The notes: generated by a model not told the origin, from the letters alone. A stretch of DNA of 63,924 nucleotides from Planctomycetota bacterium (GCA_018897395.1 JAHIKV010000324.1:1-63924); one strand, 5' to 3'. Positions 28,313 to 56,772 are shown, counted from the first letter of the stretch. Numbers and translations: made by a program.

Positions 28313-28313
28313 G

Positions 28314-28387: not shown

Positions 28388-28388
28388 G

Positions 28389-28462: not shown

Positions 28463-28463
28463 T

Positions 28464-28556
28464 TGGCGGAGGGGAAGGGGATCGAACCCTTAAGACCCTC
28501 TCGGGCTCAACTGTTTTCAAGACAGTCTCCGTCGCCAGCCTTCGGATTGCCCCTCC
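28464..28556 (-). tRNA. tRNA-Ser(UGA)
   Basis: Acceptor GGAGGGG/CCCCUCC, G73, 3-bp D stem, loop CU-UGA-AA, long variable arm, CCA encoded. Confidence 0.8.
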
Positions 28557-28569
28557 GCACGCTTATAAT

Positions 28570-28646
28570 TGGTCGGGGTGGCAGGATTTGAACCTGCGCC
28601 CCCATGGTCCCAAACCATGTGCGCTACCTGACTGCGCCACACCCCG
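28570..28646 (-). tRNA. tRNA-Pro(UGG)
   Basis: Loop UU-UGG-GA, CCA encoded. Confidence 0.85.
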
Positions 28647-28655
28647 ATGATTTTC

Positions 28656-28731
28656 TGGAGCGACCGGCGGGTCTTGAACCCGCGACCTCAACCCTGGCAA
28701 GGTTGCGCTCTACCGTCTGAGCTACGGTCGC
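28656..28731 (-). tRNA. tRNA-Gly(GCC)
   Basis: Loop UU-GCC-AG, CCA encoded. Confidence 0.85.
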
Positions 28732-28732
28732 T

Positions 28733-28807
28733 TGGAGCGAGCAAAGGGGTTCGAACCCTTATGGCCGACTTGGAAGGCCGGGGCTCTACCGATTGAGCTA
28801 TGCTCGC
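28733..28807 (-). tRNA. tRNA-Gly(UCC)
   Basis: Loop CU-UCC-AA, CCA encoded. Confidence 0.85.
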
Positions 28808-28883
28808 TGGTGGAACCGGTCGGGATCGAACCGACAACCTCCTGGTTGCAAACCAGGTGCTCTCCCGATTGAGCTACAGTCCC
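28808..28883 (-). tRNA. tRNA-Ala(UGC)
   Basis: Loop UU-UGC-AA, G3:U70 identity pair present, CCA encoded. Confidence 0.9.
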
Positions 28884-28887
28884 GCGA

Positions 28888-28963
28888 TGGTCGGCCCGGC
28901 AAGAATCGAACTTGCAATCTACCGGTTAAGAGCCGGTTGCTCTGCCAATTGAGCTACGGGCCG
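28888..28963 (-). tRNA. tRNA-Lys(CUU)
   Basis: Loop CU-CUU-AA, CCA encoded. Confidence 0.85.
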
Positions 28964-28964
28964 A

Positions 28965-29039
28965 TGGTAGCGGCGGTGGGGATCGAACCCACGACCTCCA
29001 GGGTATGAACCTGGTGAGCTAACCACTGCTCCACGCCGC
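28965..29039 (-). tRNA. tRNA-Met(CAU), elongator type
   Basis: Loop UU-CAU-AC, paired 1:72, no GGG/CCC anticodon stem, CCA encoded. Confidence 0.8.
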
Positions 29040-29044
29040 ATTGT

Positions 29045-29119
29045 TGGGGTGACCTACCGGAATCGCACCGGCACCTCCAGGGCCACGGCCTGACGCTCTT
29101 CTATTGAGCTAAGGTCACC
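29045..29119 (-). tRNA. tRNA-His(GUG), C33 and atypical T-loop
   Basis: Encoded G-1 opposite C73, loop CC-GUG-GC (C33), T-loop UGCGAUU, CCA encoded. Confidence 0.7.
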
Positions 29120-29123
29120 TCGT

Positions 29124-29200
29124 TGGCTGCGGTGGCAAGATTCGAACTTGCGACACGGCGGTTAACAGCCGCCTGCTCTACCACTGAGCTACACCGCAGC
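29124..29200 (-). tRNA. tRNA-Asn(GUU)
   Basis: Loop CU-GUU-AA, CCA encoded. Confidence 0.85.
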
Positions 29201-29350
29201 GTTGCCCGACCCCACTCGAGAGGTCGGGCTTGCCGTTGACCGCCCTGGCCGATCACGTTACCTTAATACTGCTGCAAACGCTCTTGCTTCTCTCTTCAAT
29301 CAAACCCCCTTCCTTGCCTTTCTTTGCCAGTCACTCACGCTTTAGTTTTT

Positions 29351-29434
29351 TGGTGGGGATGTCAGGAATCGAACCTGCCTAGTCATCGACGCCGGGGTTA
29401 CGGCCCGGCACAGCTCCCACGCTGTCGCATCCCC
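29351..29434 (-). tRNA. tRNA-Tyr(GUA), C33 variant
   Basis: Loop CC-GUA-AC (C33), long variable arm as in bacterial tRNA-Tyr, CCA encoded. Confidence 0.7.
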
Positions 29435-29435
29435 T

Positions 29436-29509
29436 TGGAGGCGGAGACAGGAATCGCACCTGCGTGTGCCGGTTTGCAGCCGGCCGCTTTTCTCCTCAGC
29501 CACTCCGCC
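29436..29509 (-). tRNA. tRNA-Cys(GCA), atypical T-loop
   Basis: Loop CU-GCA-AA, T-loop UGCGAUU, CCA encoded. Confidence 0.75.
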
Positions 29510-29510
29510 T

Positions 29511-29584
29511 TGGTGGACCCGGATGGTGATGCTCCACCTCCTCCCGCTTATGAGGCGGGCGTTCTCCTGTTAAACTACGGGTCC
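29511..29584 (-). tRNA. tRNA-Ile2-like (CAU), atypical T-loop
   Basis: Loop CU-CAU-AA. Acceptor and D-arm (GGACCCGUAGUUUAAC) are nearly identical to tRNA-Ile(GAU) at 30085. T-loop AGCAUCA. CCA encoded. Confidence 0.65.
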
Positions 29585-29660
29585 TGGAGCCGGTGGAGGG
29601 CATCGAACCCCCGACCTTGGCATTACAAGTGCCCTGCTCTGCCATCTGAGCTACACCGGC
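29585..29660 (-). tRNA. tRNA-Thr(UGU)
   Basis: Loop CU-UGU-AA, CCA encoded. Confidence 0.85.
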
Positions 29661-29664
29661 TGTT

Positions 29665-29740
29665 TGGCACCCCCGCGAGGATTTGAACCCCGAACCTCCC
29701 GGGCCGAAACCGGGCGCTCTATCCGTTGAGCTACGGAGGT
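29665..29740 (-). tRNA. tRNA-Arg(UCG)
   Basis: A1-U72, loop UU-UCG-GC, CCA encoded. Confidence 0.8.
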
Positions 29741-29767
29741 ACATGTTGTTTGTCTTTTTCTGCTATT

Positions 29768-29844
29768 TGGAGGCCATCCCCGGACTCGAACCGGGAACAT
29801 CCACCTTAGGAGGGTGACGCTCTGTCCAGTTGAGCTAGATGGCC
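29768..29844 (-). tRNA. tRNA-Arg(CCU)
   Basis: Loop CU-CCU-AA, CCA encoded. Confidence 0.85.
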
Positions 29845-29852
29845 TTTTCCTT

Positions 29853-29929
29853 TGGAGCCCCCGGTCGGACTTGAACCTACAACCTGTGGATTAGAAGTCC
29901 ACCGCTCTATCCAATTGAGCTACGGGGGC
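29853..29929 (-). tRNA. tRNA-Arg(UCU)
   Basis: Loop CU-UCU-AA, CCA encoded. Confidence 0.85.
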
Positions 29930-29930
29930 T

Positions 29931-30005
29931 TGGCGCCCTGTAGGAGAGTCGAACTCCTATCTCCTCCTCGACAGGGAGGTATGCTTGCCACTACACCAAC
30001 AGGGC
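29931..30005 (-). tRNA. tRNA-Asp(GUC)
   Basis: Loop CU-GUC-GA, CCA encoded. Confidence 0.85.
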
Positions 30006-30084
30006 TGGTGGCCTCTGAGGGATTTGAACCCTGCGTTTCCGGGTTGAAAGTCCGGCGTCCTTGACCTGGCTGGACGAAGAGGCC
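30006..30084 (-). tRNA. tRNA-Glu(UUC)
   Basis: Loop CU-UUC-AA, enlarged D-loop, CCA encoded. Confidence 0.8.
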
Positions 30085-30159
30085 TGGTAGACCCGGAAGG
30101 CTTCGAACCCTCGCTTCACCCTAATCAGGGGTGCGTTCTGCCGGTTAAACTACGGGTCT
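30085..30159 (-). tRNA. tRNA-Ile(GAU), U37 variant
   Basis: Stem CACCC/GGGUG, loop CU-GAU-UA (pyrimidine at position 37), CCA encoded. Confidence 0.75.
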
Positions 30160-30347
30160 TTTAGGATGCCTAGCCGCTACCACCCAGGCCACTAAGGACC
30201 GGGGTCCACCCCAAACCGCTTCACTCCTCGCGGCAACACTCCCCGGGTCACACCGGGCGGAGTGCTTTCGGCACCAATACTTTTCCAGCTATTCTTTTTT
30301 CAAGGTTCCGCATCCCGCGTCTTTCCAGCGAGACAGTCACCGACTAT

Positions 30348-30423
30348 TGGTTGCGGGGGCGGGAGTTGCACCCGCACCCTCAGGGTTATGAACCCCGCTG
30401 AGCTGCTCCAGCTCCACCCCGCT
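30348..30423 (-). tRNA. initiator tRNA-fMet(CAU), atypical T-loop
   Basis: A1/A72 mismatch, GGG/CCC pairs closing the anticodon stem, loop UU-CAU-AA, T-loop UGCAACU, 3' end CCCCGCAACCA as in bacterial initiators. Confidence 0.75.
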
Positions 30424-30431
30424 TCATTTCC

Positions 30432-30507
30432 TGGTGGAGGTGGCAGGCCTCGAACCTGCGGCCTCCGGGTTAAAAGCCCGTTGCTCTGCCGTCTGAGCTA
30501 CACCTCC
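30432..30507 (-). tRNA. tRNA-Lys(UUU)
   Basis: Loop CU-UUU-AA, CCA encoded. Confidence 0.85.
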
Positions 30508-30509
30508 GC

Positions 30510-30584
30510 TGGCGGGCCGGGAAGGACTCGAACCTCCACTCTCCGGTTTTGGAGACCGTTGTGTTCCCGTTACACCACCGACCC
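30510..30584 (-). tRNA. tRNA-Trp(CCA)
   Basis: Loop CU-CCA-AA, G73, CCA encoded. Confidence 0.85.
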
Positions 30585-38640: not shown

Positions 38641-39798
38641 CTAAGCGGCCCTCGCTATAGATGTTGGCCTCGGCTTGTTCATTATTTCGCGCAGCTCGTC
38701 CGGTCCCCACGGTCGGAACGCTTCTTCAAACGTTGCTGCGTCCAGCAACTTCCGTCTGGTCAGTTCGCAGGATGGGATGGATCCCCGGGAGTGTATTGCT
38801 CCGTGCAGGACCCTCTTAAACTTCTCAACCGTTTGAAGCTGGTCGATGTCCCAGTTCCGAGACACAAAGTTGTTCTTCGGCTCTGCCGTCTTGTGTTGGT
38901 ATCTCATCGGGAACGCGGCCACGCCCCACTCGATAAGTGTGTTTATGCGCGCCCAGAAAGACTCCGGCGTATCCCTGAAGTTGTACAGCACGTAAACCAT
39001 TACGCGGCTCGGGTTTATCCCGGCGTCCTTTATCAACCCCACGGTTCGCTTAAGCGGCCGGAACACCTTTCCCTGGTCGTAGGCAAGCCTTATGGTTTTG
39101 ACCTTCGACTTCCTAAGGAACTCTACGTCGCCTTCGTTCACCCTACGGCAGTCGAGCCCCTGACTAAAATCTATCTCCTTGATGTTGGGCATCTCCGCCA
39201 CCTCGCCCAGCACGTCTTTCCAATGGGCGTTGGCAAAGAAATTATTGTCCCAGAAGACAACCTTTTTGTGATTTTCTTCTACGAGATGTTTCACCGATCG
39301 CTTCTCTTCGAACTCAGGCTCCAGCAGCCTCACGAAGCAGTACGGGCACTTCTCGGGGCAGCCCCTGGATGCGAACACCTGGCTTGTAGACCCGTGCTTT
39401 ATCATCCTGTCATCGTCTGCTGGTAGCAAGTCGTAATCAGGCATGAGGTCTTCCGCCTCCGGGAATACGCCCCTGTGTACCTCAACGTCATCTCCCCAGT
39501 AATCCTCGATATCACCAGGGCAAAGGCTTGCGTAAATTCCACCGCAAATCAGCCTTGCCTTGGGATAAGCGTTCCGGTAGAAGGTTATCGCCTCACCTAC
39601 CCGCTCGAAAGCGTATGTATACAGGCTGGTGATGTAAATTACGTCTGGGTTATATCGGCAGTCGTCTGGCCCACACACATACTTGACCTCATCCCCCAAC
39701 GCCTTATGGTATGCGCTCAGTTTGAGCAGGCCCAGCGGGGGGTAGGTTACGTGGTACTTGATCAACGATCTCCTCGGTTCAACCAGTAGTACTCTCAC
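38641..39798 (-). CDS. B12-binding-domain radical SAM protein
   Basis: N-terminal Rossmann-like B12 region (RVLLVEP...PPLGLLKLSAY), then the radical SAM cluster motif SRGCPEKCPYC. Confidence 0.8.
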   Translation of the reverse strand: MRVLLVEPRRSLIKYHVTYPPLGLLKLSAYHKALGDEVKYVCGPDDCRYNPDVIYITSLYTYAFERVGEAITFYRNAYPKARLICGGIYASLCPGDIEDYWGDDVEVHRGVFPEAEDLMPDYDLLPADDDRMIKHGSTSQVFASRGCPEKCPYCFVRLLEPEFEEKRSVKHLVEENHKKVVFWDNNFFANAHWKDVLGEVAEMPNIKEIDFSQGLDCRRVNEGDVEFLRKSKVKTIRLAYDQGKVFRPLKRTVGLIKDAGINPSRVMVYVLYNFRDTPESFWARINTLIEWGVAAFPMRYQHKTAEPKNNFVSRNWDIDQLQTVEKFKRVLHGAIHSRGSIPSCELTRRKLLDAATFEEAFRPWGPDELREIMNKPRPTSIARAA

Positions 39799-47341: not shown

Positions 47342-47370
47342 ATTATATTCCCCGGGTCTCTGTATGTCAA
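47342..47370 (-). promoter_or_regulatory. parAB promoter
   Basis: ATTGACATACAGAGACCCGGGGAA-TATAAT. Confidence 0.65.
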
Positions 47371-47397: not shown

Positions 47398-47422
47398 AAA
47401 ACCCCCGCTTGACGGGGGTTTT
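47398..47422. terminator. bidirectional intrinsic terminator
   Basis: AAAA-CCCCCG-CUUGA-CGGGGG-UUUU between the HIRAN gene and the parA promoter. Confidence 0.75.
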
Positions 47423-47501: not shown

Positions 47502-47864
47502 TCAGCTTGCACGTTTTATCTCGATCACCAACCCCCTCGTCTTCCCCTCTTCTTTTCCCGTAAGCGCAGTCACCTTTGCCCTGAACCTGGCGCCTCCCGC
47601 TATCGACTTTGACATCGACTCTGCCAGCTTTTTCTTCCGCCCGTCCGGCGTTTTCCTGTACCGCGGCACGTATCCGACCAGCTTCTTCTCTGCTCCCTCT
47701 TCTCTTACCACCGCAACCGCGTATGGGTCGGTCTTGTTGGTCGGGTGTCTCATTATGCTCAGGCTCTCCCCCACCCTGACTTTCCTCACGGTTTCTTGCC
47801 TCTTGTTGAAGCTTACTCCCACTACCTTTGTCGGGAACGGTTTCGGAAACGGCAGCGTCTTCAC
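47502..47864 (-). CDS. HIRAN-domain protein
   Basis: GTG 47864 overlaps the upstream stop (GTGA). VVGVSFNKRQ...GESLSIMRHPTNKTDPYAVAVV...KLVGYVPR fits HIRAN. Only the last 120 codons of ORF 47502..48416 are used. Confidence 0.7.
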   Translation of the reverse strand: MKTLPFPKPFPTKVVGVSFNKRQETVRKVRVGESLSIMRHPTNKTDPYAVAVVREEGAEKKLVGYVPRYRKTPDGRKKKLAESMSKSIAGGARFRAKVTALTGKEEGKTRGLVIEIKRAS

Positions 47865-49606
47865 TTTTTCCACCCTCTCGTGTAATCCTTGATTGCCTTG
47901 GTTAGTCTTGATGGCAACGTCTCTGTGTCCTCTGCGAATACGTACCTTGAGTAAATCTTCTTTAGGTGGTTGTCGCTCTTTGGCCCTATGTAGATACACA
48001 TCACGTCCGCAAACCTCTCGACATCCTTCACGCTTATCCTTGTGTCCTCTATTGCCCCTGCCCCCCAGTAGTCGATGCTTTGGGGCAGTCCGTCGCTTAT
48101 CACAACCATCAGCTTTCTTCTGTTCTTCTCGGCCCTCAGGTACTCTCCCGCAAGATTGATAGCCAGTCCGTCCCTGTTGTTGTCTCTTGCCCTTACGTTT
48201 GCCAGTTTCGCCGAGAGTGACCTGGTTACCCTTTCCCCGAACTTGATGTATGCCCTCAGCCGCAAGTTGTCCGTTACGCCACAGTTGTCGAACCCCATTA
48301 CCGAGTGCCTTATCCCAAGCTCTCTTAGCGCTTCGTGTAACGCCACCGCCGCTTCTCTCAAGTGCTTTTCTCTTGTGTACATAGACCCGCTTTCGTCGAG
48401 CAGCACCATCACACAAGGTTCTCTGTTTACCTTTGCCCGCTGGTTCCTGAATATACTCTTCTCCCCTAGAACTGACCTGTACACCAGCGGCGGGTCCACG
48501 GTCCCCCTTCTCTCTTCCCGCCTTACGTCGTCCAGCTCTTCCCTCAGTAGTATCAACTTCAACGCCTTCTTGAGCTTCTTTGCGGCGGGTTTTGTCACCG
48601 CCTTTACGTTCTCATACTCTGCCAGATCCCCGTCCGGCCTTTCCAAAACCACTTCTGCGGAGAACCTTAGTACCCGATTTTTGTACTCTTCTTTCCCCCC
48701 TCTTATTGCTTTTTCCAGTCCATTTTCCCCCTCTGCGTTCGCCCTGCCCGTTTCCTCGATCTCCCTCTCGATCTCCCGCAGCAGTTCTTCCTCTCTGTCT
48801 TCTCCCCCCTTTTCTGCTTCTCCGAGCACCGTCACGTCTTCCTCTTTGCCTTCCGGTATCGCTTCCCCCCCCACGTCCACCCTTATCTTCGGCCCCTCTC
48901 CCGGCATATCGTCACTTGATAGTTGAGGCTCCCCTACCCCGGGAAAATCCTTCGCTCCTGGCGGGATCAGGTCTTTTACTATCTCCCATATGTCCTCTGC
49001 CCCCGCCAGCACGTCCAGCGGGTCTCGTGCATACCTTGCCTCTGCCACCTTCGGCTTTACTCCCTCAACGATGTTCCTTATTGCGCTTCCCGATATCCCG
49101 TCGCTTGACTTCTTGAAACGGGTCCTTATCTCTCCAAGCTTTGAGAGTTCCCACATGGCACTCCACACCTGTTGCCACGCCGTCGCTTCCCCTTCTATCT
49201 TTTCATACATGTGTTCGTTCATCGTGCCCAGCAGCGCGTTCGCCCTTTTGACCGCCTGTCTCAGCAGTAACTCTATCCGCCCGTCCTCGAGCAAGTTCCA
49301 GATATTCTTTATCCCGTTCTTTGACTCTTCCTTCCGTCCTGCTTCGACTACCGTCTCTGTCGGTGTGTACAGGGCATGCCCCGCTTCGTGGAGCACCATG
49401 GCCTTGGCTATGTGCAATTCTTCCATGCCACCTTCCATCTCTTCCACGCGGATCAGGTTCCTCACGTGCTCATAGGACGCCCCGATTCCCTCGCCGTACA
49501 GGACCCTTATCGTCCAGTCATTCGCCACCCGGTGCGCGTACCGGCTCAAGAAACCTGCGATTACGTCTCTGCTTACGCTGGCCTTCTCCTTAAGCAGCAA
49601 GCTCAT
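47861..49606 (-). CDS. vWA-domain protein with N-terminal HExxH motif (CobT-like)
   Basis: MVLHEAGHALYTP near the N-terminus, an acidic linker, a vWA MIDAS motif VLLDESGSM, and VVISDGLP. Confidence 0.8.
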   Translation of the reverse strand: MSLLLKEKASVSRDVIAGFLSRYAHRVANDWTIRVLYGEGIGASYEHVRNLIRVEEMEGGMEELHIAKAMVLHEAGHALYTPTETVVEAGRKEESKNGIKNIWNLLEDGRIELLLRQAVKRANALLGTMNEHMYEKIEGEATAWQQVWSAMWELSKLGEIRTRFKKSSDGISGSAIRNIVEGVKPKVAEARYARDPLDVLAGAEDIWEIVKDLIPPGAKDFPGVGEPQLSSDDMPGEGPKIRVDVGGEAIPEGKEEDVTVLGEAEKGGEDREEELLREIEREIEETGRANAEGENGLEKAIRGGKEEYKNRVLRFSAEVVLERPDGDLAEYENVKAVTKPAAKKLKKALKLILLREELDDVRREERRGTVDPPLVYRSVLGEKSIFRNQRAKVNREPCVMVLLDESGSMYTREKHLREAAVALHEALRELGIRHSVMGFDNCGVTDNLRLRAYIKFGERVTRSLSAKLANVRARDNNRDGLAINLAGEYLRAEKNRRKLMVVISDGLPQSIDYWGAGAIEDTRISVKDVERFADVMCIYIGPKSDNHLKKIYSRYVFAEDTETLPSRLTKAIKDYTRGWKK

Positions 49607-51131
49607 CGTCTATCATGTCCACAAGGGACACCCTTTCCTCTTCATCTTTCGCAACCGCCGGCACTATGAGCAGTTGCGCTATCTTCTTTGGGCTTTCCCC
49701 GTCCGTGTACTTCGCCCAGGTTATGAGGTTCCTTGTTGTTATCGGTTGCGAGATCTCTCCGTGTTCATACTGCTTCCTGGTCTTCTGCGCGATTTCTACC
49801 ATCTTCCTTATTAGTCCGTTGTCCTTGTTCCCGCTTCTCTTCGCTACCACCTTGGTCTCTTCGGGTGTGTCCAGGTAATCAAGGTATATCTTCACGAACC
49901 TGTCCTCTGTTGAGGGGTCAAGCCCCCCGGCACCCAGGTACTCGTCGCCTTCATTTGCGGTTGCGATAACTCTTGTGTGCCTGTGTAGCTTCATCGTCCT
50001 GTCCCCCAGTTCAAGCACCCTATCCTGTAGGAATGAGTTAAACACCATCGCTCTCTCCGGCTTGAGGCTTCTTATCTCGTCAACAAGTAGCCCGTACCCA
50101 TTCCTAGCTGCTATCATCAACTTGCTTTCTACCTCATGTGTTGACCCGTCCTTTATGCCAGTGCTTTTCACCAGTGAACAGTAGTAGTCAAAGTCGCTGT
50201 TCGCGCTTATTGTCACCATCGGCATCCCCATGTGTGCATACACCGCCTGCGCCAGCGTACTTTTGCCTATCCCTGCGGGGCCGATGATCATTAGCGGGTC
50301 CTTCTCGTGAGTTATGGTAGTCGCCAGTTTTTCTTCTCCCATCCTGTCAACGTAGAACACCCGCTTTGGTACCATCTTCTCTTCGGCCTTGGTTAACTTG
50401 CGCTCTACCACAAACTGGCTCCAGTCGATATTTTCCACCTTCCTTTTCGCTGCGCCCTTTTCTACCTTCGCTTTCCCGAGCACGTCTGTTCCCAACCGCA
50501 GTTCCCTCCCCTTGTGGCTTCTGAACGTCTTCTCGCGGTCCGGTATGTCCATCAACTTGAAGTCTTCGTTCATCTTGTGTGTCCATCTCATCTGGTAGTA
50601 CGTCTCGTCCATCAACCGTATGAGCTCTTTTTCCTCTTCGCTTCCGACCGTCATGGTAATAGCCCCCGCAGCCATGATCTTGTTTATACCCTCTCTTGTC
50701 TCGCTTCCCCCTCTGACCGCCTCAAGGCAAAGCATCGCTACAGGTATGTGGTAACAAGAGGCATGCCCGCTTGAGGGGTCGCAGGCCGGGCACTCATGTG
50801 ACACCAGTATCTCTCCGCTATGTTTCCCGCGCGTAATCCTCATGTGGTATGTCTTGCTCGCGGTGCTCCCGCTTGCCATCGCAACAAAAATGCCCTCTGG
50901 GTTTTGCTTGTCTTCGTACACCCTTGTTTGCCACAGTGCCTTTACGACCACCGCTTCCATCTTTCCGCTCACTACGGTGTGGGCCTGTACCTTGGGCGTT
51001 TTTGCGTCCAGGAGTTCTACGTGCGTGGTTCCGAAGTAATCCCTGTCTATTATCTTCTCCAGGGCACCCCTTTGTAACAACCAAAGGTCTGTGCTCCGCC
51101 CGAAAAGTTGTGTGAAATTGTACTTTGCCAT
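49590..51131 (-). CDS. MoxR/CobS-like AAA+ ATPase with N-terminal SWIM zinc finger
   Basis: SWIM-type CPACDPSSGHASCYH. Walker A IIGPAGIGKST, Walker B LLVDEI. ATG 51131 follows the promoter at 51151-51179. Confidence 0.8.
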   Translation of the reverse strand: MAKYNFTQLFGRSTDLWLLQRGALEKIIDRDYFGTTHVELLDAKTPKVQAHTVVSGKMEAVVVKALWQTRVYEDKQNPEGIFVAMASGSTASKTYHMRITRGKHSGEILVSHECPACDPSSGHASCYHIPVAMLCLEAVRGGSETREGINKIMAAGAITMTVGSEEEKELIRLMDETYYQMRWTHKMNEDFKLMDIPDREKTFRSHKGRELRLGTDVLGKAKVEKGAAKRKVENIDWSQFVVERKLTKAEEKMVPKRVFYVDRMGEEKLATTITHEKDPLMIIGPAGIGKSTLAQAVYAHMGMPMVTISANSDFDYYCSLVKSTGIKDGSTHEVESKLMIAARNGYGLLVDEIRSLKPERAMVFNSFLQDRVLELGDRTMKLHRHTRVIATANEGDEYLGAGGLDPSTEDRFVKIYLDYLDTPEETKVVAKRSGNKDNGLIRKMVEIAQKTRKQYEHGEISQPITTRNLITWAKYTDGESPKKIAQLLIVPAVAKDEEERVSLVDMIDDELAA

Positions 51132-51150: not shown

Positions 51151-51179
51151 AATATATGTTCTATGGGATAGTACGTCAA
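51151..51179 (-). promoter_or_regulatory. element-type promoter (AAA+/vWA/HIRAN operon)
   Basis: GTTGACGTACTATCCCATAGAACA-TATATT. Confidence 0.7.
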
Positions 51180-51281: not shown

Positions 51282-51392
51282 GCGCGGTAAACTTTTCTGG
51301 CCACCCAAGAAGCCCTGGGCCACAAGAACATCTCAACCACACAGATTTACACCCACGTTGTCAATGAGGACGTTAGAAGGGCGATGAGTTAG
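51282..51392 (+). pseudogene. tyrosine recombinase 3' fragment, copy D
   Basis: ...[28 protein letters not shown]. Core 51282-51387. The tail is of the same type as copy B. Confidence 0.75.
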
Positions 51393-51471
51393 TGCTCCAA
51401 TTCAAGACTACGGTAACGTATCCCGACAGCACTATATACTGCCCACCATGGGGAAAGCTGAGAATACCCCG

Positions 51472-54400
51472 TTAATCAGAGTATCCCCCAATGGTATCGG
51501 TTCCCGCTCCCCGGTTGTTCCAGTACATGGAGCGCTCAACCATTATCTTCTTGCCTTCTGTCTTGGAGGTGACAAGAACGGCTGCCCTGCCGTTTATGCC
51601 CTTGTCCTCCATGGAGTAGGTCATACGGGAGTTGGCCCCCACCGACTCCTCGAAGGTGACGTTTCCGGCACCGTCCGGTGTCAGGTAGGTTATCTGGACC
51701 GTCACCGCGTTGTCGTTGGGGTTGGCCACCAGGGTGTAGGTCTCATATCCATCGCCCGCCTGCCCGTCGGGGAGGTAGAAGGTGGTGTGGGGCTCAGCCA
51801 TCCCTATGGAGTCGTGGGAAGCCTCACCCAGCGCTGTGTCTGCTCCCCAGTACATGGCCCTCTCGGCGATTATGGGGTTTGCGCCACTCACCTGGGTGGA
51901 GAAATCGCTTCCGGGAAGGAAGTCGTTCACGCAGATGGTGTCACGGGAGTTGGCGGGCATGTTGATGGGGTTTTCCGGGTGTGCCACCGGACCGGAGTTG
52001 GTCAGGTAGGTCACGTTCACGTCGGTTGCGGTGTCATTGGGGTTCTGCACCAGAACGTAGGTGGTGAACCCGTAGTTGGTGGTGCCTTCGGCCAGGTAGT
52101 AGTCGGCCGCCGGTGCGGTGGTCCCGATCGAGTCGTGGCCCGACCTCTTGTTGTTGCGGTACATCGCCCTCTCGGGGATTATGGGGATTTCCGATTCCAC
52201 CTTGATGGAAGCGTCTTTTTCTCCAATGTCGTTTGCCATTTTGAAGGTTCTTCTGGAGTTTGCGGGTATCTTCTTCGTGAAGGCTTGGGGTTCCTCGTTC
52301 TCCATCATATATGTCACTAGGCAGGTGGCCTCCAGGTTGTTGGGGTTCTGTATGAGGAGGAAGCACTCGAAACCCCAGGCGGAGGAGCCTTCGGGCAGGT
52401 ACCAGGTCTTTGCCGGGGAAGTGACACCTATCGAGCTATGGGCCTCCTCGCTCTTTGCTCCCTCTCCAGTCCAGGTCATGGTGCGGTCCACCGCTATTGA
52501 TTTGCCCTCCAGACATTCCACCCTGGTGGAGAAGTCGGTGTCGCCCAGGTCCCTTCTCGGGTCAACGGTGGTCTGGCTCTCGGGGGGGAGGGACACGGTC
52601 CTAGTGGCAACCTTTCCCCATCCGCCCTCGGTGTTCGTGTCCATGTAGGTGACATTCGCGTGAAGTTCTTCCTTGTTGGGGTTCTCTACCGATATCTCGG
52701 TGTCGAAACCCCAGGCGGTGGAGCCCTCAGCCAGGTACCAGACCGGCTGGGTCACGGTGAACACCTTGTCGTCGTTGGAGACCCCTCCGACCGTCTCCAC
52801 CGTCACCGGCCCGGTGGTGGCCCCTACCGGGACCCTGCACTCTATCCGCTTGTCGGACCACTCGAGGTACTCGCCCGCAGGCACCCCGTTGAAGCGGACG
52901 ACGGCCGCTTCGCTCCCGCCTACCCCCTCCCTGGAACCAAGGAAGTTGGAGCCGGTGATGGCCACCTTCGTCCCGGTGGGGCCCACCCGCGGCTCGAGGC
53001 CCTCCACAGCCGGGGCCTCCACCACAGGGGCCTGCTCGACCACGGAGAAGCCGCCCCGCTTGGGGGCAGGGACCTCGGAGCCCGTCCGGACGTTCACGTC
53101 CCTGGCCCCGGCGGTCGCGCTTGCCGATATGGTGATGTTGGTGGTGGCGTGGGCGGCGTCGGAGACCGTGGTGGAGTTAACGGTTGTCCCCGTCCCCGAG
53201 AAGGTGGCGGCGCTGACCCCGTCCTGGAAGTTGGTGTAGGTCCCCACTATGGCCACGTCCATGGTCTGGCCCTGGGCCCCCGAGGCGGGGTTGACCGAGG
53301 TTATTTTGGCGTTCCCCACCGCGAACCCGCCGACAAGCGGCATCGGCACTTCCGGGCCGGTGGTCACGTTCACGTCGCGGGGTCCCTCTGCGGCGGAAGG
53401 GCTGATTGTAACGTTGACCTTCACGCTCTCCGGACCCACCTCCTCTATATGGTTCACGGTGACGCCGGCACCGAGGGTTGCATCGCTTGTGATTTCGAAA
53501 TGGGTCTGGCTGCCGGAGATGTTCACTTCACCCGACCAGCCGGGGGGGGCCGACGGCGGCGATACCCCTACCATCGTGGGGTCGGGGTCGACGACGAAGC
53601 CCCCGGCGAGGGGAGTAGGAGTCTCGCCGCCGGTTGTGACGTTAACGTCCCTGGGGCCCTGCGCCACATCCGGCGCGATCCGAAGATCGGCCTCCAGGTG
53701 AGTGTGGTCGATGACGTTGAGGGAGCCGGGCACGACCGTTACGCCGCGCCCCGCGTCTATGGTGCTCGCGCCGCCGAAGTGGGTGTAGCCGCCCACAATC
53801 TCGACCTTGACGGTCTGCCCCGTGTTCCCCCAGTTGGGAGAGCAGTACTTGATGTACGGAGGGTCGGCGAAGAGGATGTCGCCGTTTACGCCGACCGCCC
53901 AGGCGTTGTTCGCGTCGTACGCGCGGACCCCGTAGAGGTTGTCGGTGGTCCAACTTTCCTGGAATCCCCACGAAGAACCGTTATAGAAGCATATGGTCCC
54001 GCCGTCGCCGACGGCCCAGACGTGGGTGCTGTCCACGGCGGACACGCCGCGCAGGGTCACGGTTGTTCCGCTCGCCTGGGGGGTCCAGTTGGTCCCCCCG
54101 TTGGAGGTGTACAGGATGGTGCCGTTGGCACCCACCGCCCATACTACCGAGGTGGAGAGGGCGCAGACCCCGAGGAGGTTCTCGGTGGTGCCGCTGGTCT
54201 GGCTACCCCAGGTCCTGCCGTTCGTCGTCCGGTATATCCTGCCCTCGTCCCCCACCGCCCAGGCGTAGAGGGTGGAGGCTGCGGACACTGCGTTCAGGGG
54301 CCTGTCGGTTATGTCGTTGTACTGAAGGCTCCAGGAACCGTTTCTATAGCGCCAGATGTTTCCTATCGAGGTGACATCCCAGAGATAATTGGCCGCCGGG

Positions 54401-56466
54401 GCCGTCACCCCGGTGTTGGATTCGCCGGCGGAGGTCGACTTGAGGGCCCACGTGCTTCCATTGAAGTAGAGGTCCTCGCCATTCGACGTGGACGGGTTCC
54501 ACCCCACCGCCCAGGCGAAGGTAGAACTGACGGCGGAGACGGCGTTCAGGTCGCCGGTGGTGGGGCAGGACTGTGGTATCCACGTCTCGCCGCCGCTGGA
54601 GGTGTACTGTATGGCGCCGTTGTCTCCCACCGCCCAGACAACGTCCGCGCTCAAGGCGTCCACGCCCTGGAGGGTCTCGGTTGTGCCGCCGGAGAGCGCG
54701 GACCAGGCGGAGCCGCCGTTGAAGAGAGCGGTGCCGGCGTCCCCCACCGCCCAGGCGCTGCCGGCACCTACGGTCGACACGCCATGCAGATACCTCTCTG
54801 TCCCGCTGGCCTTTTCGACCCATCCAGAACCGCCGTCACCAGTGTAGATGGTCTTGCCCTTATCTCCCACCGCCCACACTCTTTTCTCGTCAATGGCCGA
54901 CACGGCACTGAGGTCCACTTCCGCGGGATTATGCTGCTCGGTCCATTTGGAGCCGTCGTAGAAGAGGATTGTGAAATGATCGCCCACCGCCCAGACTCTT
55001 TTCTCGTCAATGGCCGACACGGCACTGAGGTTCGCGGGCACGGGACTCTCCTGCTCTTTCCAATTGATGCCGTCGTAGAAGAGGATGGTGCCGTTCGCCC
55101 CCACCGCCCAGGCGCTTGTGGTGGAGAGGGCGCTTGCCCCGTAGAGGTTCTGCGCGGTGCCGCTCGCCTGGGTGCCCCAGTTGGTGCCGCCGTTGGCGGT
55201 GTAGCGTATCATTCCGGTCGCCCCCACCGCCCACACGTGGCTGGTGTCCAGCGCGGTAATGTCGTATAGAGGGTAGTCAATGCTCAACTGGGTGGACCAG
55301 CTACTGCCGTTCCACTTGTATATCCATCCGTCCTCGTCCACTATCCACACGCTGTCGCCGGCGGCGGCGGCGACGCTGACTATCGAGTAGCCGTTCAAGG
55401 TCGCCCTCAACGACCACGAACCGCCGTAGTAGCGCAAGACCTCCCCCCGGGATAGTGACGGGTTCCAGCCGACCGCCCAGGCCTCGTCCGCGCTGACAGA
55501 GTCCACGTCCAGAAGATTCGCGGTGGTGCCGCTGGCCTGTTCGGTCCATCCCCCTCCTCCGCGGGAAAAGAGGAACTTTTCCGAACCCACGGAGTATATG
55601 TGGGTGCTATCCAGGGCACAGACATCGTATAAGTCCTGGGTGGTGCCGGAGGGCTGTTCGGTCCATGACGCGCCGTTGTACTTCTGGATCACGCCATCCC
55701 AGCCCACCGCGTACACGTTGGTCCCGTTGAAGGCGGAGATGCTGACCGGCCAGCCACCGAGGTAATACGTGGTGCCCCATGTAACGCCCCCGTTGGTCGA
55801 ACGGAGTATGGTGCCGTCCCAGTCGACCGCCCACACGTCGGAAGCGCTGTAAGCGGACACCTGGTACGGCTTCCGGGTGCTTCCGTCGTTGATGATGCTC
55901 CAGGAGGTACCGTTGAAGAAGTAGGTTTTTAGATCAACCGCCCACACGTGGGTCGCGTCGAGAGCGTAAACGTCCTGGAAGCCGCCTTCATCGTATGTCT
56001 TCTGCACGCTCCAGGAGGTGCCGTTGTAGAAGAGTATCGTCGCGTTGTGCCAGCCGTCCCTGCTGCCCACCGCCCAGACGTGGGTGTTGTCGGATGCTGA
56101 TACCGCCTTGAGGTCGTAGGTTGTGCCGCTCGCCTGGGTGGTCCAGGCGGAGCCGTTGTAGAAGAGTATTGTGCCGGCCTCGCCGACCGCCCAGGCGTGT
56201 GTCGCGTCGGTGGCGGTAACCCCGTAGAGGTCGTGCGTGGTCCCGCTATACTGCTTGCTCAATGTGGCGCCGTTCCAGAACATGATGGTTCCGTATTCGC
56301 CCACCGCCCACGCGTTTGTGGAGTTTGCGGCCTCCACGGCGAATAGGTTGTGGCGCTTGGGGATCGGGCTCTGCCATACCCAGGTGTAATCGGGCCCTGC
56401 GAGCGCGCCGCAGGTGCAGACTAGCATCACGAGTACGACTGCCACCCCAAACAGCGCGAGCAGCAT
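51472..56466 (-). CDS. 1,664-aa secreted surface protein: beta-propeller WAVG repeats, TIG/IPT domains, four C-terminal ~105-aa repeats
   Basis: ATG 56466 with a GGAGG RBS and signal MLLALFGVAVVLVMLV. About 20 repeats of ~40 aa ending in W/AVG. Ig-like segments (GARDVNVRTG, GPRDVNVTTG). C-terminal repeats start WYLAEGSTAWGF, WYLPEGSSAWGF, YYLAEGTTNYGF and FYLPDGQAGDGY. Confidence 0.85.
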   Translation of the reverse strand: MLLALFGVAVVLVMLVCTCGALAGPDYTWVWQSPIPKRHNLFAVEAANSTNAWAVGEYGTIMFWNGATLSKQYSGTTHDLYGVTATDATHAWAVGEAGTILFYNGSAWTTQASGTTYDLKAVSASDNTHVWAVGSRDGWHNATILFYNGTSWSVQKTYDEGGFQDVYALDATHVWAVDLKTYFFNGTSWSIINDGSTRKPYQVSAYSASDVWAVDWDGTILRSTNGGVTWGTTYYLGGWPVSISAFNGTNVYAVGWDGVIQKYNGASWTEQPSGTTQDLYDVCALDSTHIYSVGSEKFLFSRGGGGWTEQASGTTANLLDVDSVSADEAWAVGWNPSLSRGEVLRYYGGSWSLRATLNGYSIVSVAAAAGDSVWIVDEDGWIYKWNGSSWSTQLSIDYPLYDITALDTSHVWAVGATGMIRYTANGGTNWGTQASGTAQNLYGASALSTTSAWAVGANGTILFYDGINWKEQESPVPANLSAVSAIDEKRVWAVGDHFTILFYDGSKWTEQHNPAEVDLSAVSAIDEKRVWAVGDKGKTIYTGDGGSGWVEKASGTERYLHGVSTVGAGSAWAVGDAGTALFNGGSAWSALSGGTTETLQGVDALSADVVWAVGDNGAIQYTSSGGETWIPQSCPTTGDLNAVSAVSSTFAWAVGWNPSTSNGEDLYFNGSTWALKSTSAGESNTGVTAPAANYLWDVTSIGNIWRYRNGSWSLQYNDITDRPLNAVSAASTLYAWAVGDEGRIYRTTNGRTWGSQTSGTTENLLGVCALSTSVVWAVGANGTILYTSNGGTNWTPQASGTTVTLRGVSAVDSTHVWAVGDGGTICFYNGSSWGFQESWTTDNLYGVRAYDANNAWAVGVNGDILFADPPYIKYCSPNWGNTGQTVKVEIVGGYTHFGGASTIDAGRGVTVVPGSLNVIDHTHLEADLRIAPDVAQGPRDVNVTTGGETPTPLAGGFVVDPDPTMVGVSPPSAPPGWSGEVNISGSQTHFEITSDATLGAGVTVNHIEEVGPESVKVNVTISPSAAEGPRDVNVTTGPEVPMPLVGGFAVGNAKITSVNPASGAQGQTMDVAIVGTYTNFQDGVSAATFSGTGTTVNSTTVSDAAHATTNITISASATAGARDVNVRTGSEVPAPKRGGFSVVEQAPVVEAPAVEGLEPRVGPTGTKVAITGSNFLGSREGVGGSEAAVVRFNGVPAGEYLEWSDKRIECRVPVGATTGPVTVETVGGVSNDDKVFTVTQPVWYLAEGSTAWGFDTEISVENPNKEELHANVTYMDTNTEGGWGKVATRTVSLPPESQTTVDPRRDLGDTDFSTRVECLEGKSIAVDRTMTWTGEGAKSEEAHSSIGVTSPAKTWYLPEGSSAWGFECFLLIQNPNNLEATCLVTYMMENEEPQAFTKKIPANSRRTFKMANDIGEKDASIKVESEIPIIPERAMYRNNKRSGHDSIGTTAPAADYYLAEGTTNYGFTTYVLVQNPNDTATDVNVTYLTNSGPVAHPENPINMPANSRDTICVNDFLPGSDFSTQVSGANPIIAERAMYWGADTALGEASHDSIGMAEPHTTFYLPDGQAGDGYETYTLVANPNDNAVTVQITYLTPDGAGNVTFEESVGANSRMTYSMEDKGINGRAAVLVTSKTEGKKIMVERSMYWNNRGAGTDTIGGYSD

Positions 56467-56772
56467 GCTGCGGCTTCCTCCCGCCCCTCCGACCTTTCCT
56501 TTCCCCGTAGACGGCACTCCGGAACTCAAAGGACCTCCACCTCGCTCGCCGTTGCGGTACCTTGCCGCGGGGCATCCCCCTGAAGGACTATGCACGGGTA
56601 ATACCTCTCTTGGGATTTCTCTCCCCTGATATATGTATAGCGTTCTGATACCCACATCGGTTCTTAATCACCATAACGCGGACCGCTTTTCACCCATTCG
56701 ACCGATAAATAGTCGTGCTCTTCAAGCCGATAAATAAAGTGAAGGCTGGTTTCTAGCAGTGTAGGTGATGAG

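What the first reader, a model, noticed from the sequence alone, without database searches (positions are those of the whole stretch)
47502..51131. Translationally coupled SWIM-AAA+ / HExxH-vWA / HIRAN operon
Three genes are transcribed from one element-type promoter and end at a strong bidirectional terminator (47398-47422).

- The first is a MoxR/CobS-like AAA+ ATPase carrying an N-terminal SWIM zinc finger.
- The second is a 581-aa protein with an HEAGH metallopeptidase-like motif and a C-terminal vWA domain with a DESGSM MIDAS motif.
- The third is a 120-aa stand-alone HIRAN protein. HIRAN domains bind DNA 3' ends.

The coding regions overlap, by 17 nt and by a GTGA overlap, which implies fixed stoichiometry.

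MoxR-vWA pairs are known as chaperone-like modules, as CobS/CobT-like phage genes, and as cores of predicted NTP-dependent conflict systems. I am not aware of a described system that combines them with SWIM and HIRAN DNA-recognition modules. On a mobile element, plausible roles include replication-fork or DNA-end remodelling, and a defence or anti-defence function. These roles are inference.
Basis: partly seen in the sequence, partly recalled or inferred. Interest (0 to 1): 0.65.

Follow-up and report, generated by a model that had tools for sequence, protein, structure and literature searches.

The report
Mobile-element AAA+/vWA/HIRAN operon
A real three-gene operon on an integrated mobile element pairs a rare version of the phage "CobS/CobT-like" ATPase and adaptor proteins with a DNA-end-binding HIRAN protein; relatives share only the pair, which usually sits among DNA replication and repair genes, so it probably acts on DNA enzymes rather than making vitamin B12.

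Summary
The operon is real. It has one promoter (one of nine near-identical element promoters), three overlapping minus-strand genes and a strong terminator.

- **g1** is a MoxR-class AAA+ ATPase (AAA_5 plus CbbQ_C lid) with intact catalytic motifs.
- **g2** has an invariant HExxH...EDGRIE motif and a C-terminal vWA domain with a DESGSM MIDAS site.
- **g3** passes Pfam's HIRAN threshold.
- **SWIM** is not confirmed. The Cys/His cluster (HxCxxC...CxH) is conserved, but no profile or fold search supports it.

The g1-g2 pair belongs to the known, functionally unresolved phage "CobS/CobT-like" module, also described as MoxR plus metallopeptidase-vWA. This subfamily is very rare: about five clusters among 1.84 billion representative proteins, from groundwater and Actinomycetota (Geothermincolia) assemblies.

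The triad is not conserved. In relatives the gene after g2 is DnaE or a Cas4-like nuclease, and HIRAN was found only here. Replication or recombination genes lie near 12 of 13 examined loci. None has capsid, tail, cobN or other cobalamin genes.

Best reading (inferred): an ATP-driven remodelling or maturation module for DNA-bound or DNA-enzyme clients, here targeted to DNA 3' ends by HIRAN. It is a new variant of a known kind, of moderate interest.

The parts
51151..51179 (-). Operon promoter: -35 TTGACG, 17-nt spacer, -10 TATATT. It is one of nine copies of the element's conserved promoter motif (GTTGACGTACTATCC...).
49590..51131 (-). g1: 513-aa MoxR-class AAA+ ATPase. It has an N-terminal domain of about 260 aa, an AAA_5 core and a CbbQ_C lid. 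The start at 51131 follows the ribosome-binding site GAGGTGA. The upstream ATG at 51182 lies inside the promoter.
50748..50798 (-). Conserved Cys/His cluster H112-E-C114-P-A-C117...C126-Y-H128 followed by a helix. It is SWIM-like by signature only.
50259..50282 (-). Walker A motif GPAGIGKS (residues 284-291). Walker B LLVDE is at 50076-50090. The arginine-finger region DRF is at 49896-49904 and sensor 2 TTRN at 49728-49739.
47861..49606 (-). g2: 581-aa adaptor protein. It has an N-terminal helical domain carrying HExxH, an acidic linker and a C-terminal NorD/CobT-type vWA domain. It overlaps g1 by 17 nt.
49271..49390 (-). Zincin-like motif: HEAGH (residues 73-77) and EDGRIE (residues 107-112). 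An HExxH and an ED[GA]xxE motif are present in all eight database homologues, down to 26-30% identity.
48380..48397 (-). MIDAS motif DESGSM (residues 404-409) of the vWA domain. SDGLP lies at 48083-48097.
47502..47864 (-). g3: 120-aa stand-alone HIRAN protein. Its GTG start overlaps the g2 stop codon (GTGA). N43 and D46 align with HLTF N91 and D94, and F19 with Y72.
47398..47422 (.). Intrinsic terminator hairpin flanked by A and T runs. It separates the operon from the parA promoter (47370-47342, a perfect consensus).
51283..51436 (+). Context only: a remnant of a tyrosine-recombinase C-terminal box. It is one of four direct repeats and probably marks the right edge of the ~30-kb element, just upstream of the operon promoter.

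Best explanation
**What it is (shown).** This is the first transcription unit inside the right end of an integrated mobile element of about 30 kb in a groundwater bacterium, probably Actinomycetota. It encodes three proteins:
- g1, a MoxR-class AAA+ ATPase;
- g2, its vWA/MIDAS adaptor, which carries an N-terminal HExxH domain; and
- g3, a stand-alone HIRAN protein.

The g1-g2 pair is a rare subfamily of the widespread phage 'CobS/CobT-like' module.

**How it most likely works (inferred).**
- By analogy with the solved NorQ-NorD and CobS-CobT machines, g1 forms a hexameric ring.
- g2 docks on the ring by inserting a vWA 'finger' or 'shaft' into the pore, and holds a client protein on its other face.
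- ATP hydrolysis then remodels the client. This could be cofactor insertion or release of a bound partner, and the HExxH domain might also cleave the client.
- The clients are DNA-replication or recombination proteins of the element or host.
- In this locus g3 brings the machine to DNA 3'-OH ends (primer ends, stalled forks or processed breaks). In relatives the coupled partner is DnaE itself or a Cas4-like nuclease.
- The Cys/His cluster in the g1 N-terminal domain is a probable structural or nucleic-acid-binding zinc site.
For: - **Domains and motifs.** establish the domain calls and intact catalytic motifs.
- **Mechanistic precedent.** The AAA ring plus inserted vWA adaptor is described in PMC13036017 and in bioRxiv 10.64898/2026.07.21.739949. 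Both structures are the nearest solved relatives of g1 and g2.
- **Conserved coupling.** g1 and g2 overlap in every relative where both are seen: by 1 nt in L001 and by 4 nt in L002 and L003.
- **Context within the subfamily.**
  - L001/L010: PD-(D/E)XK nuclease, AAA, vWA, then DnaE overlapping vWA by 4 nt.
  - L002: DnaE, a sigma factor and RecR upstream of AAA and vWA.
  - L003: AAA, vWA, then a Cas4-like nuclease.
  - L011: AddB-like and AddA-like genes, then the AAA gene.
  - Window: terminator, then parA, parB, one ORF with no family hit and ssb. A NAD-dependent ligase and a PD-(D/E)XK nuclease lie on the same element.
- **Context of distant pairs.** They sit next to a UvrD helicase; SSB, a helicase and ParAB; a YqaJ exonuclease; SSB; primase, helicase and polymerase in Vibrio phage ICP2; and a DNA polymerase in Listeria phage P70 and Bacteroides phage BS162P1.
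- **HIRAN.** The Pfam hit is above threshold, and the residue aligned with HLTF D94 is kept. That D94 contacts the 3'-OH is from my recollection of the HLTF HIRAN structures.
- **Closest phage relative of g3.** Bacillus phage G gp253 is a HIRAN protein located between gyrB and gyrA.
Against: - There is no experimental evidence for any member of this subfamily, and no RNA data.
- HIRAN occurs with the pair only once, so its functional link rests on one shared promoter, one terminator and a 4-nt overlap.
- Co-location with replication genes could simply reflect shared early timing.
- The peptidase fold of the g2 N-terminal domain is not confirmed: Foldseek finds no match, and residues 1-59 have low pLDDT.
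- The client is unknown.
- One distant pair (L021) sits among ADP-ribose-processing genes instead.
- L011 lacks an adjacent vWA gene.
Confidence: 0.4

Rival explanations
1. The pair is a defence, counter-defence or other conflict module. An NTP-driven vWA-MoxR sensor and switch controls a variable effector (a nuclease, or a HIRAN-targeted activity), as in the predicted vWA-MoxR conflict systems.
For: - The operon lies on a mobile element.
- The third gene is variable, as effectors are.
- g3 matches the HIRAN region of the PADLOC candidate PDC-M03B at 3e-8.
- Some distant pairs neighbour ADP-ribosylglycohydrolase and Macro genes.
- vWA-MoxR cores of conflict systems are described in PMC7159879 (listed).
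Against: - g2 matches no PADLOC model, and g1 gives only P-loop-level matches.
- g1 gives no bpMoxR (PF20030) hit.
- DnaE as the coupled third gene is not an effector.
- The pair is conserved in replication modules of lytic phages such as ICP2.
Confidence: 0.15
2. g3 is a functionally independent passenger gene. On this reading HIRAN acts on its own in element DNA replication or repair. It shares the promoter only because the genome is compact, and the AAA+/vWA pair has an unrelated client.
For: - HIRAN is absent from all other loci with the pair.
- Stand-alone HIRAN genes occur by themselves in phages, for example phage G gp253.
- Four-nucleotide overlaps are common in compact operons (general knowledge).
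Against: - There is one promoter and one terminator, no internal signals were found on the minus strand, and the start and stop codons overlap.
- In a relative the same position is also translationally coupled, to DnaE.
Confidence: 0.2
3. The pair is a cobaltochelatase CobS/CobT that joins a host CobN to boost cobalamin synthesis. This is the usual database annotation.
For: - g2 matches Pfam CobT_C and g1 matches phrog_249 'porphyrin biosynthesis'.
- PMC8651126 proposes this role for viral cobST.
- A B12-binding radical-SAM gene lies on the same element at 38641-39798.
Against: - The NCBIfam equivalog scores are far below their cut-offs: CobS 38.7 against 558.55, and CobT 18.2 against 759.05.
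- NorD is a closer solved relative of g2 than CobT.
- Outside the vWA region g2 gave no family or structure match: the PDB profile matches lie in the C-terminal vWA region, and Pfam gave no credible hit for residues 1-360. That N-terminal part carries the conserved HExxH motif.
- No cobN or other cobalamin gene appeared among the ORFs scanned in the window, and there is no cobalamin riboswitch.
- No related locus has cobalamin genes nearby.
Confidence: 0.1
4. The pair is a virion-assembly chaperone and protease, as proposed for jumbo-phage MoxR plus metallopeptidase-vWA pairs and as reported for the MoxR-vWA pair of Acidianus two-tailed virus.
For: PMC7824862 describes the same architecture and proposes this role.
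Against: - No capsid, tail or portal gene was detected in the window ORFs scanned or in any related locus.
- The operon uses the same promoter type as the element's ligase, ssb and other genes.
- In ICP2, P70 and BS162P1 the pair lies in the replication module.
Confidence: 0.1

Closest known systems
Phage 'CobS/CobT-like' pair, also described as a MoxR AAA+ plus metallopeptidase-vWA chaperone pair (phrog_249 with phrog_1576/17276; PMC7824862, PMC8651126)
   Same: - It has the same two-gene architecture: an AAA_5 ATPase next to a vWA/MIDAS protein whose N-terminal domain carries HExxH...ED[GA]xxE.
- It is found on phages and other mobile elements, and its function is unresolved.
   Different: - This subfamily shares only about 26-30% identity with those pairs, over the vWA domain alone.
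- Its ATPase has a conserved Cys/His cluster in the N-terminal domain that distant phage members lack.
- It is translationally coupled to HIRAN or DnaE.
- It is extremely rare.
NorQ-NorD, CbbQ-CbbO and CobS-CobT (CbbQ/GvpN/NorQ-type MoxR machines with vWA adaptors)
   Same: - These are the nearest solved relatives of the g1 AAA core and lid and of the g2 vWA domain.
- The likely mechanics are shared: a hexameric ring with an inserted vWA finger or shaft.
   Different: - Their clients are metabolic metalloenzymes.
- g1 has an extra N-terminal domain of about 260 aa.
- g2 has an HExxH domain, and outside its vWA region it gave no match to the NorD or CobT chains.
- The equivalog scores are not met.
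E. coli yehL-yehM-yehP-yehQ operon (YehL subfamily of MoxR ATPases)
   Same: It combines a MoxR AAA_5 ATPase, a vWA protein and a genuine SWIM zinc-finger protein in one uncharacterised operon. The association of MoxR and vWA with a SWIM-type module is therefore not unprecedented.
   Different: - There SWIM is a separate 614-aa protein that passes Pfam.
- The vWA protein is of the CoxE type.
- A DUF5682 protein (YehM) is part of the operon.
- There is no HExxH domain and no HIRAN gene.
HLTF/Rad5-type HIRAN domain and stand-alone phage HIRAN proteins (for example Bacillus phage G gp253)
   Same: - g3 passes the Pfam HIRAN threshold.
- The N91/D94 motif and the aromatic residue at the Y72 position are kept.
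- It sits in a DNA-metabolism context, as gp253 does between gyrB and gyrA.
   Different: - R71 and Y93 are replaced by Ser and Thr.
- No helicase or ligase is fused to it.
- Prokaryotic HIRAN domains are described as uncharacterised in PMC11090510.
SPRTN-p97 and Wss1-Cdc48 (eukaryotic repair of DNA-protein crosslinks). This is an analogy from general knowledge only.
   Same: The combination is similar: an HExxH metalloprotease, an AAA+ ATPase and a module that binds DNA structures.
   Different: No homology was shown. The peptidase fold of g2 is unconfirmed, and the AAA+ class differs (MoxR rather than Cdc48).

Membership tests
MoxR-class AAA+ ATPase (AAA_5 / CbbQ-NorQ-CobS-midasin type) | An AAA_5 core with a CbbQ_C-type lid, and intact Walker A, Walker B, arginine-finger and sensor-2 motifs | tested here: met
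   AAA_5 scores 57.4 bits (cut-off 22) and CbbQ_C 37.1 bits (cut-off 20.6). PDB profile hits are midasin 2e-36, CbbQ 7e-24, NorQ 8e-22 and CobS 5e-18. GPAGIGKS, LLVDE, DRF and TTRN are present. G284, P285, G289, K290, S291, E352, D410, R411, F412, T465, T466 and R467 are invariant in the family alignment.
Cobaltochelatase CobS (TIGR01650 equivalog) | Whole-protein score above NCBIfam's equivalog cut-off | tested here: not met
   38.7 bits against a cut-off of 558.55.
Cobaltochelatase CobT (TIGR01651 equivalog) | Whole-protein score above the cut-off, and a CobN partner gene in the genome context | tested here: not met
   18.2 bits against a cut-off of 759.05. No cobN or other cobalamin gene appeared among the window ORFs scanned, and there is no cobalamin riboswitch. 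None is seen in the related loci.
vWA domain with a MIDAS site | The vWA fold, plus the DxSxS motif and downstream Thr/Asp ligands | tested here: met
   CobT_C scores 47 bits (cut-off 21) and VWA 24.5 bits (cut-off 23.8). NorD matches at 1e-13. A D.SGSM motif is present in all eight database homologues, and DESGSM in the three full-length close relatives.
Zincin-like metallopeptidase | An HExxH motif with a third ligand, on a zincin fold (a mixed beta-sheet followed by the active-site helix) | tested here: inconclusive
   HExxH and ED[GA]xxE are present in all eight homologues down to 26-30% identity. phrog_459 'peptidase' matches residues 70-117 at 1.9e-5. However, the AlphaFold model is mostly helical, residues 1-59 fall below pLDDT 50, and Foldseek against the PDB finds nothing with E<=0.001.
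SWIM zinc finger (PF04434) | The CxCxnCxH signature recognised by the family profile | tested here: not met
   Pfam gives no hit at E<=10 for g1, for seven relatives' N-termini, or for the 37-aa motif alone. Foldseek finds nothing significant. Only a resemblance remains: conserved HxC(xxC)...CxH followed by a helix. The best hhalign local alignment to E. coli YehQ falls on a second CxC...CxH motif there, outside its Pfam SWIM hit, at a probability of 2%.
HIRAN domain (PF08797) | A profile score above the gathering cut-off, and conserved residues of the 3'-end-binding pocket | tested here: met
   34.2 bits against a cut-off of 24.7. phrog_18569 covers residues 12-97. In the alignment to the verified HLTF HIRAN sequence, N43 aligns with N91, D46 with D94 and F19 with Y72, but R71 becomes Ser and Y93 becomes Thr. 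The closest phage relative, phage G gp253, matches HIRAN at 1e-11. DNA binding itself was not tested.
vWA-MoxR ternary conflict systems (Kaur et al. 2020) and known defence systems in PADLOC | A bpMoxR-type ATPase with vWA, VMAP and effector partners, or a match to a defence-system model | tested here: not met
   g1 does not match PF20030. g2 has no PADLOC hit and g1 has only weak P-loop matches. g3 matches only the HIRAN segment of the candidate PDC-M03B.
YehLMPQ-type operon | A YehL-type MoxR ATPase, a DUF5682 protein, a CoxE-type vWA protein and a separate SWIM protein | tested here: not met
   The operon has only three genes. None matches DUF5682, VWA_CoxE or SWIM, in contrast to the E. 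coli operon.

The most novel reading that the evidence does not exclude
The operon may encode a DNA-end-targeted protein remodeller and protease. HIRAN would dock an AAA+ ring and an HExxH-vWA adaptor at 3' ends of stalled or broken replication intermediates. There the machine would strip, mature or cleave DNA-bound proteins such as polymerase, nuclease, covalently trapped proteins or terminal proteins. This would be a prokaryotic mobile-element counterpart of SPRTN-p97 or Wss1-Cdc48. It would also give the widespread phage 'CobS/CobT' genes a first real function, in DNA metabolism rather than in B12 synthesis or virion assembly.
Probability: 0.15. Interest if true: 0.8.

Novelty: new variant of a known kind. 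Interest (0 to 1): 0.5.

Why it matters
- **Unresolved function.** Phage 'CobS/CobT' pairs are widespread. PMC8651126 calls the cobST cluster part of the core genome in cyanophages. They are routinely annotated as auxiliary metabolic genes for cobalamin, yet their function has never been tested, and two incompatible predictions are in print.
- **What this locus adds.** This subfamily is translationally coupled to DnaE or HIRAN and flanked by Cas4-like or AddAB nucleases, RecR, SSB and ParAB. Together with the replication-module position of distant pairs in ICP2, P70 and BS162P1, that gives a concrete and testable alternative: a role in DNA replication or recombination.
- **HIRAN.** It also offers a rare functional handle on prokaryotic HIRAN domains, which are described as uncharacterised.
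- **If wrong.** If the DNA link fails, the finding is simply one more divergent MoxR-vWA pair.

Tried and rejected
- **Nucleotide searches.** Megablast of 44-52 kb against the phage and plasmid collections found no match.
- **IMG/VR scans.** Searches with profiles of g1 and g2 found no relatives.
- **Word-index protein search for g3.** It found only itself, as a 98%-identical variant.
- **Lookup of the 530-aa gene call P0001.** It is not on record.
- **SWIM tests.** I tried Pfam at E<=10 on g1, on seven relatives and on the bare motif. I also ran Foldseek against the PDB and BFVD with an AlphaFold model of residues 1-262 (pLDDT 62), and hhalign against E. coli YehQ. None is significant. The top but non-significant fold hits were E2/UBC enzymes in both libraries, and I do not rely on them.
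- **g2 N-terminal domain.** The AlphaFold model (pLDDT 69) gave no significant Foldseek match against the PDB.
- **g3 against the PDB by sequence.** phmmer did not reach HLTF, so I used MAFFT and BLASTP against the verified HLTF HIRAN sequence instead.
- **RNA evidence.** No RNA sequencing runs are available.
- **PHROGs scan of ten unannotated element ORFs.** It found no structural genes, so I cannot say whether the element is a prophage.
- **Rejected readings.**
  - Genuine CobST: the equivalog cut-offs are missed by more than tenfold.
  - A known defence system: no PADLOC system matches.
  - A conserved triad: HIRAN is absent from all relatives.

Full report
**1. The observation**

The stated coordinates hold three minus-strand genes:
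- g1, 49590-51131 (513 aa)
- g2, 47861-49606 (581 aa)
- g3, 47502-47864 (120 aa)

The overlaps are as described. g2's ATG lies 17 nt inside g1 (ATGAGCTTGCTGCTTAA). g3's GTG shares GTGA with g2's stop codon. A GTG three codons upstream would give the 123-aa form that a database gene call uses (P0016); it would still overlap g2.

The g1 start at 51131 is preceded by GAGGTGA and by the promoter TTGACG-17-TATATT at 51179-51151. The longer 530-aa ORF would begin inside that promoter. Alignment with homologues also supports 51131.

The promoter is one of nine copies of a conserved motif, GTTGAC(G/C)NAC(T/A)AT(C/T)...TAxxAT. All nine are on the minus strand between 27 and 51.2 kb. 'Element-type promoter' is therefore a fair description.

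Downstream of g3 is a hairpin, AAAACCCCCG-UCAA-GCGGGGGUUUU. It folds at -20.3 kcal/mol with z = -4.1. parA's own perfect-consensus promoter follows it. The scan found no minus-strand terminator-like site inside the operon.

**2. The proteins**

*g1*
- It matches AAA_5 and the CbbQ/NorQ lid above Pfam's cut-offs.
- Its family profile finds midasin AAA modules, CbbQ, NorQ and CobS in the PDB.
- Walker A, Walker B, arginine-finger and sensor-2 positions are intact and conserved.
- It matches phrog_249, the phage 'CobS', at 6e-37. It misses NCBIfam's CobS equivalog cut-off by more than tenfold.

*g2*
- Its C-terminal vWA domain matches CobT_C and VWA. NorD is a closer solved relative than CobT.
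- DESGSM is the MIDAS motif.
- HEAGH at residues 73-77 and EDGRIE at 107-112 are conserved in the three close relatives. An HExxH and an ED[GA]xxE motif are also present in all eight database homologues, including the 637-756-aa phage-type proteins that share only 26-30% identity over the vWA domain.
- An AlphaFold model of residues 1-223 (pLDDT 69) is helical from residue 61 and poorly defined before that. Foldseek finds no significant match. The peptidase assignment therefore rests on the motif, on phrog_459 and on the published description (PMC7824862).

*g3*
- It passes the HIRAN gathering threshold, 34.2 bits against 24.7.
- I checked my recalled HLTF HIRAN sequence against the PDB, and it is exact.
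- In the MAFFT alignment, g3 N43 and D46 align with HLTF N91 and D94, and F19 with Y72. R71 and Y93 are replaced by Ser and Thr. The roles of those HLTF residues in 3'-end binding are from my own knowledge of the HLTF HIRAN structures.
- The only phage relative, Bacillus phage G gp253, is also a Pfam HIRAN. It sits between gyrB and gyrA.

**3. The SWIM claim**

The cluster H112-x-C114-x2-C117-x8-C126-x-H128 followed by a helix is real. H112, C114, C126 and H128 are invariant in the four aligned members. They are also present in three further members, P0017, P0018 and P0021. C117 is missing in two members.

No method recognises it as SWIM:
- Pfam gives nothing at E<=10 for g1, for seven relatives or for the bare motif.
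- Foldseek with an AlphaFold model of residues 1-262 finds nothing significant in the PDB or BFVD.
- hhalign against the genuine SWIM protein YehQ places the motif on a second CxC...CxH motif in YehQ, outside its Pfam SWIM hit, at a probability of only 2%.

More distant long phage ATPases align over the same N-terminal domain but have lost the ligands. The partners of the distant 740-aa vWA proteins lack the motif altogether. I call it a SWIM-like zinc cluster of unproven family.

**4. How common the family is, and who has it**

- The word-index search found two full-length relatives of g1 and one of g2 at 41-44% identity.
- An exhaustive profile search of 1.84 billion representative proteins found only four full-length clusters plus one fragment. 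Every other strong hit was a eukaryotic-sized midasin-like protein or an AAA-only match.
- Scans of genome and metagenome collections added five loci. Two are contigs of Actinomycetota assemblies, one of them Candidatus Anoxymicrobiaceae in the class Geothermincolia.
- IMG/VR holds none.
- The window sequence itself occurs mainly in groundwater metagenomes.

**5. Context of the relatives**

The g1-g2 pair is always adjacent, and it overlaps wherever both genes are seen. The third gene varies.

| Locus | Arrangement |
|---|---|
| L001/L010 | PD-(D/E)XK nuclease, AAA, vWA, then a 799-aa DnaE overlapping vWA by 4 nt |
| L002 | DnaE, a 90-aa gene, a sigma factor and RecR, then AAA and vWA |
| L003 | a classical AAA gene, AAA_5, vWA, then a Cas4-like nuclease |
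| L011 | AddB-like and AddA-like genes, an AAA with degenerate motifs, no adjacent vWA, then Fic |

tblastn with g3 finds no HIRAN in any of these loci.

Distant pairs show the same kind of neighbours:

| Locus | Neighbours |
|---|---|
| L004-L006 | UvrD helicase |
| L007, L020 | SSB, helicase, NrdD, ParA and ParB; L020 also has a YqaJ exonuclease |
| L022 | SSB |
| Vibrio phage ICP2 | primase, helicase, polymerase |
| Listeria phage P70 | DNA polymerase, Cas4-like gene, RuvC-like resolvase |
| Bacteroides phage BS162P1 | DNA polymerase |

L021 is the one exception. It sits among ADP-ribosylglycohydrolase, Macro and MGMT-like genes.

No locus shows capsid, tail, cobN or other cobalamin genes. 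The window has no cobalamin riboswitch.

**6. The element**

- The left part of the contig looks chromosomal: pstSCAB, a PhoR-like kinase and a group II intron.
- GC drops from about 0.59-0.60 in the flanks to 0.54 inside the element.
- Four direct repeats at 15.5, 19.7, 21.2 and 51.3 kb all encode the identical tyrosine-recombinase C-terminal peptide [27 protein letters not shown].
- The last interval, about 21.3-51.3 kb, holds all nine conserved promoters, a tRNA array of 29-30 genes, a NAD-dependent ligase, a PD-(D/E)XK nuclease, SSB, ParB, ParA and this operon.
- The operon is therefore the first transcription unit inside the right end of an integrated element of about 30 kb.
- No phage structural genes were detected among the ORFs scanned.

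**7. Mechanism**

Shown:
- The ATPase has intact catalytic motifs.
- The adaptor has a MIDAS site.
- g3 is a HIRAN domain.
- The three genes form a coupled operon.
- The pair keeps replication and recombination neighbours across about a dozen independent loci.

Inferred:
- By analogy with the solved NorQ-NorD and CobS-CobT machines, the vWA adaptor inserts a finger or shaft into the ATPase ring and presents a client on its other face.
- The client would be a DNA enzyme or a DNA-bound protein.
- HIRAN would target the machine to DNA 3' ends.
- The HExxH domain may add proteolysis.
- One variant is worth testing. Known MoxR-vWA systems mature metalloenzymes. From general knowledge, the coupled partners in relatives carry metal sites: the DnaE PHP domain, and the Fe-S clusters of Cas4-like and AddB nucleases.

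My confidence in the DNA-directed remodeller reading is about 0.4.

**8. Comparison with what is known**

- The pair is a member of the described phage MoxR plus metallopeptidase-vWA, or 'cobST', module. Two incompatible functions are proposed for it: virion assembly (PMC7824862) and cobalamin synthesis (PMC8651126).
- It is not a CobS or CobT equivalog.
- It is not a bpMoxR conflict system and matches no PADLOC system.
- MoxR, vWA and SWIM together have a precedent in E. coli yehLMPQ.
- What is new:
  - the Cys/His-bearing N-terminal domain;
  - the translational coupling to HIRAN or DnaE;
  - the consistent replication and repair context.
- The HIRAN link rests on a single locus.

**9. Verdict**

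- The triad is not a conserved system.
- I class it as a new variant of a known kind, with interest 0.5.
- Its value lies in pointing the uncharacterised phage CobS/CobT-like genes towards DNA metabolism, which is directly testable in cultured phages.

Noticed in passing
window 27633-30584 (-): A dense array of 29 tRNA genes by ARAGORN. Rfam adds a 30th at 29514-29584. The array covers most anticodon families and lies inside the lower-GC element.
   Followed up: partly
window 27088, 30881, 33980, 36934, 38032, 40071, 41298, 44836, 51150 (31-nt motif start positions, + coordinates; promoters read on -): Nine copies of a conserved extended promoter, GTTGAC(G/C)NAC(T/A)AT(C/T)...TAxxAT, all pointing the same way. 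They suggest one regulon, and perhaps recognition by an element-specific factor through the box that follows the -35 hexamer.
   Followed up: partly
window 15478-15631, 19652-19805, 21186-21339, 51283-51436 (+): Four direct repeats encode the identical C-terminal catalytic-Tyr peptide of a tyrosine recombinase ([27 protein letters not shown]). The upstream reading frames are truncated or broken, and no full-length integrase was seen. They look like scars or att-type duplications from serial integrations into the 3' end of an integrase gene, and they probably delimit the ~30-kb element.
   Followed up: partly
window 11881-14502 (-) and 51472-56655 (-): Two paralogous giant surface-type proteins with shared repeats flank the island. 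The 873-aa protein matched DUF5719 and TIG. The 1727-aa protein was not scanned; its repeats were noted by eye.
   Followed up: no
window 10042-11757 (-): A group II intron: a reverse transcriptase/maturase ORF plus Rfam D1-D4 RNA domains. It lies just downstream of the 873-aa surface-protein gene.
   Followed up: no
window 47342-47370 (-): parA has a perfect TTGACA-17-TATAAT promoter. The mechanical ORF start (TTG at 47370) is in fact the -35 box, so the real ParA start lies further downstream, near MMRILAVVNNKGG.
   Followed up: no
window 38641-39798 (-): A gene on the same element gives sub-threshold Pfam hits to B12-binding and radical-SAM domains. It is the only cobalamin-related feature seen in the window.
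   Followed up: no
g1 residues 56-155 (window about 50667-50966): The AlphaFold model shows a helix, a four-stranded meander, a Cys-bearing loop and then helices. The top Foldseek hits in both the PDB and BFVD are E2 ubiquitin-conjugating enzymes. They are not significant (E 0.035-0.3, TM about 0.2-0.3).
   Followed up: partly
L001 6047-6817; L021 4777-6973: ADP-ribosylglycohydrolase genes, plus Macro and R2K genes in L021, lie next to two AAA_5/vWA pairs. This hints at a link to ADP-ribose processing in some members.
   Followed up: no
L011 8477-10093: An orphan family member (P0018) follows AddB-like and AddA-like genes with no adjacent vWA gene. The consensus GLDPSTxDRFV is replaced by GIDHRIRDFFV and C117 is lost, so it may be decaying.
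   Followed up: partly
window 23076-23702 and 25742-26656 (-): A DDE_3 transposase and a DUF1848 protein lie inside the element. A DUF2786/DUF7168 protein is at 24667-25413.
   Followed up: no
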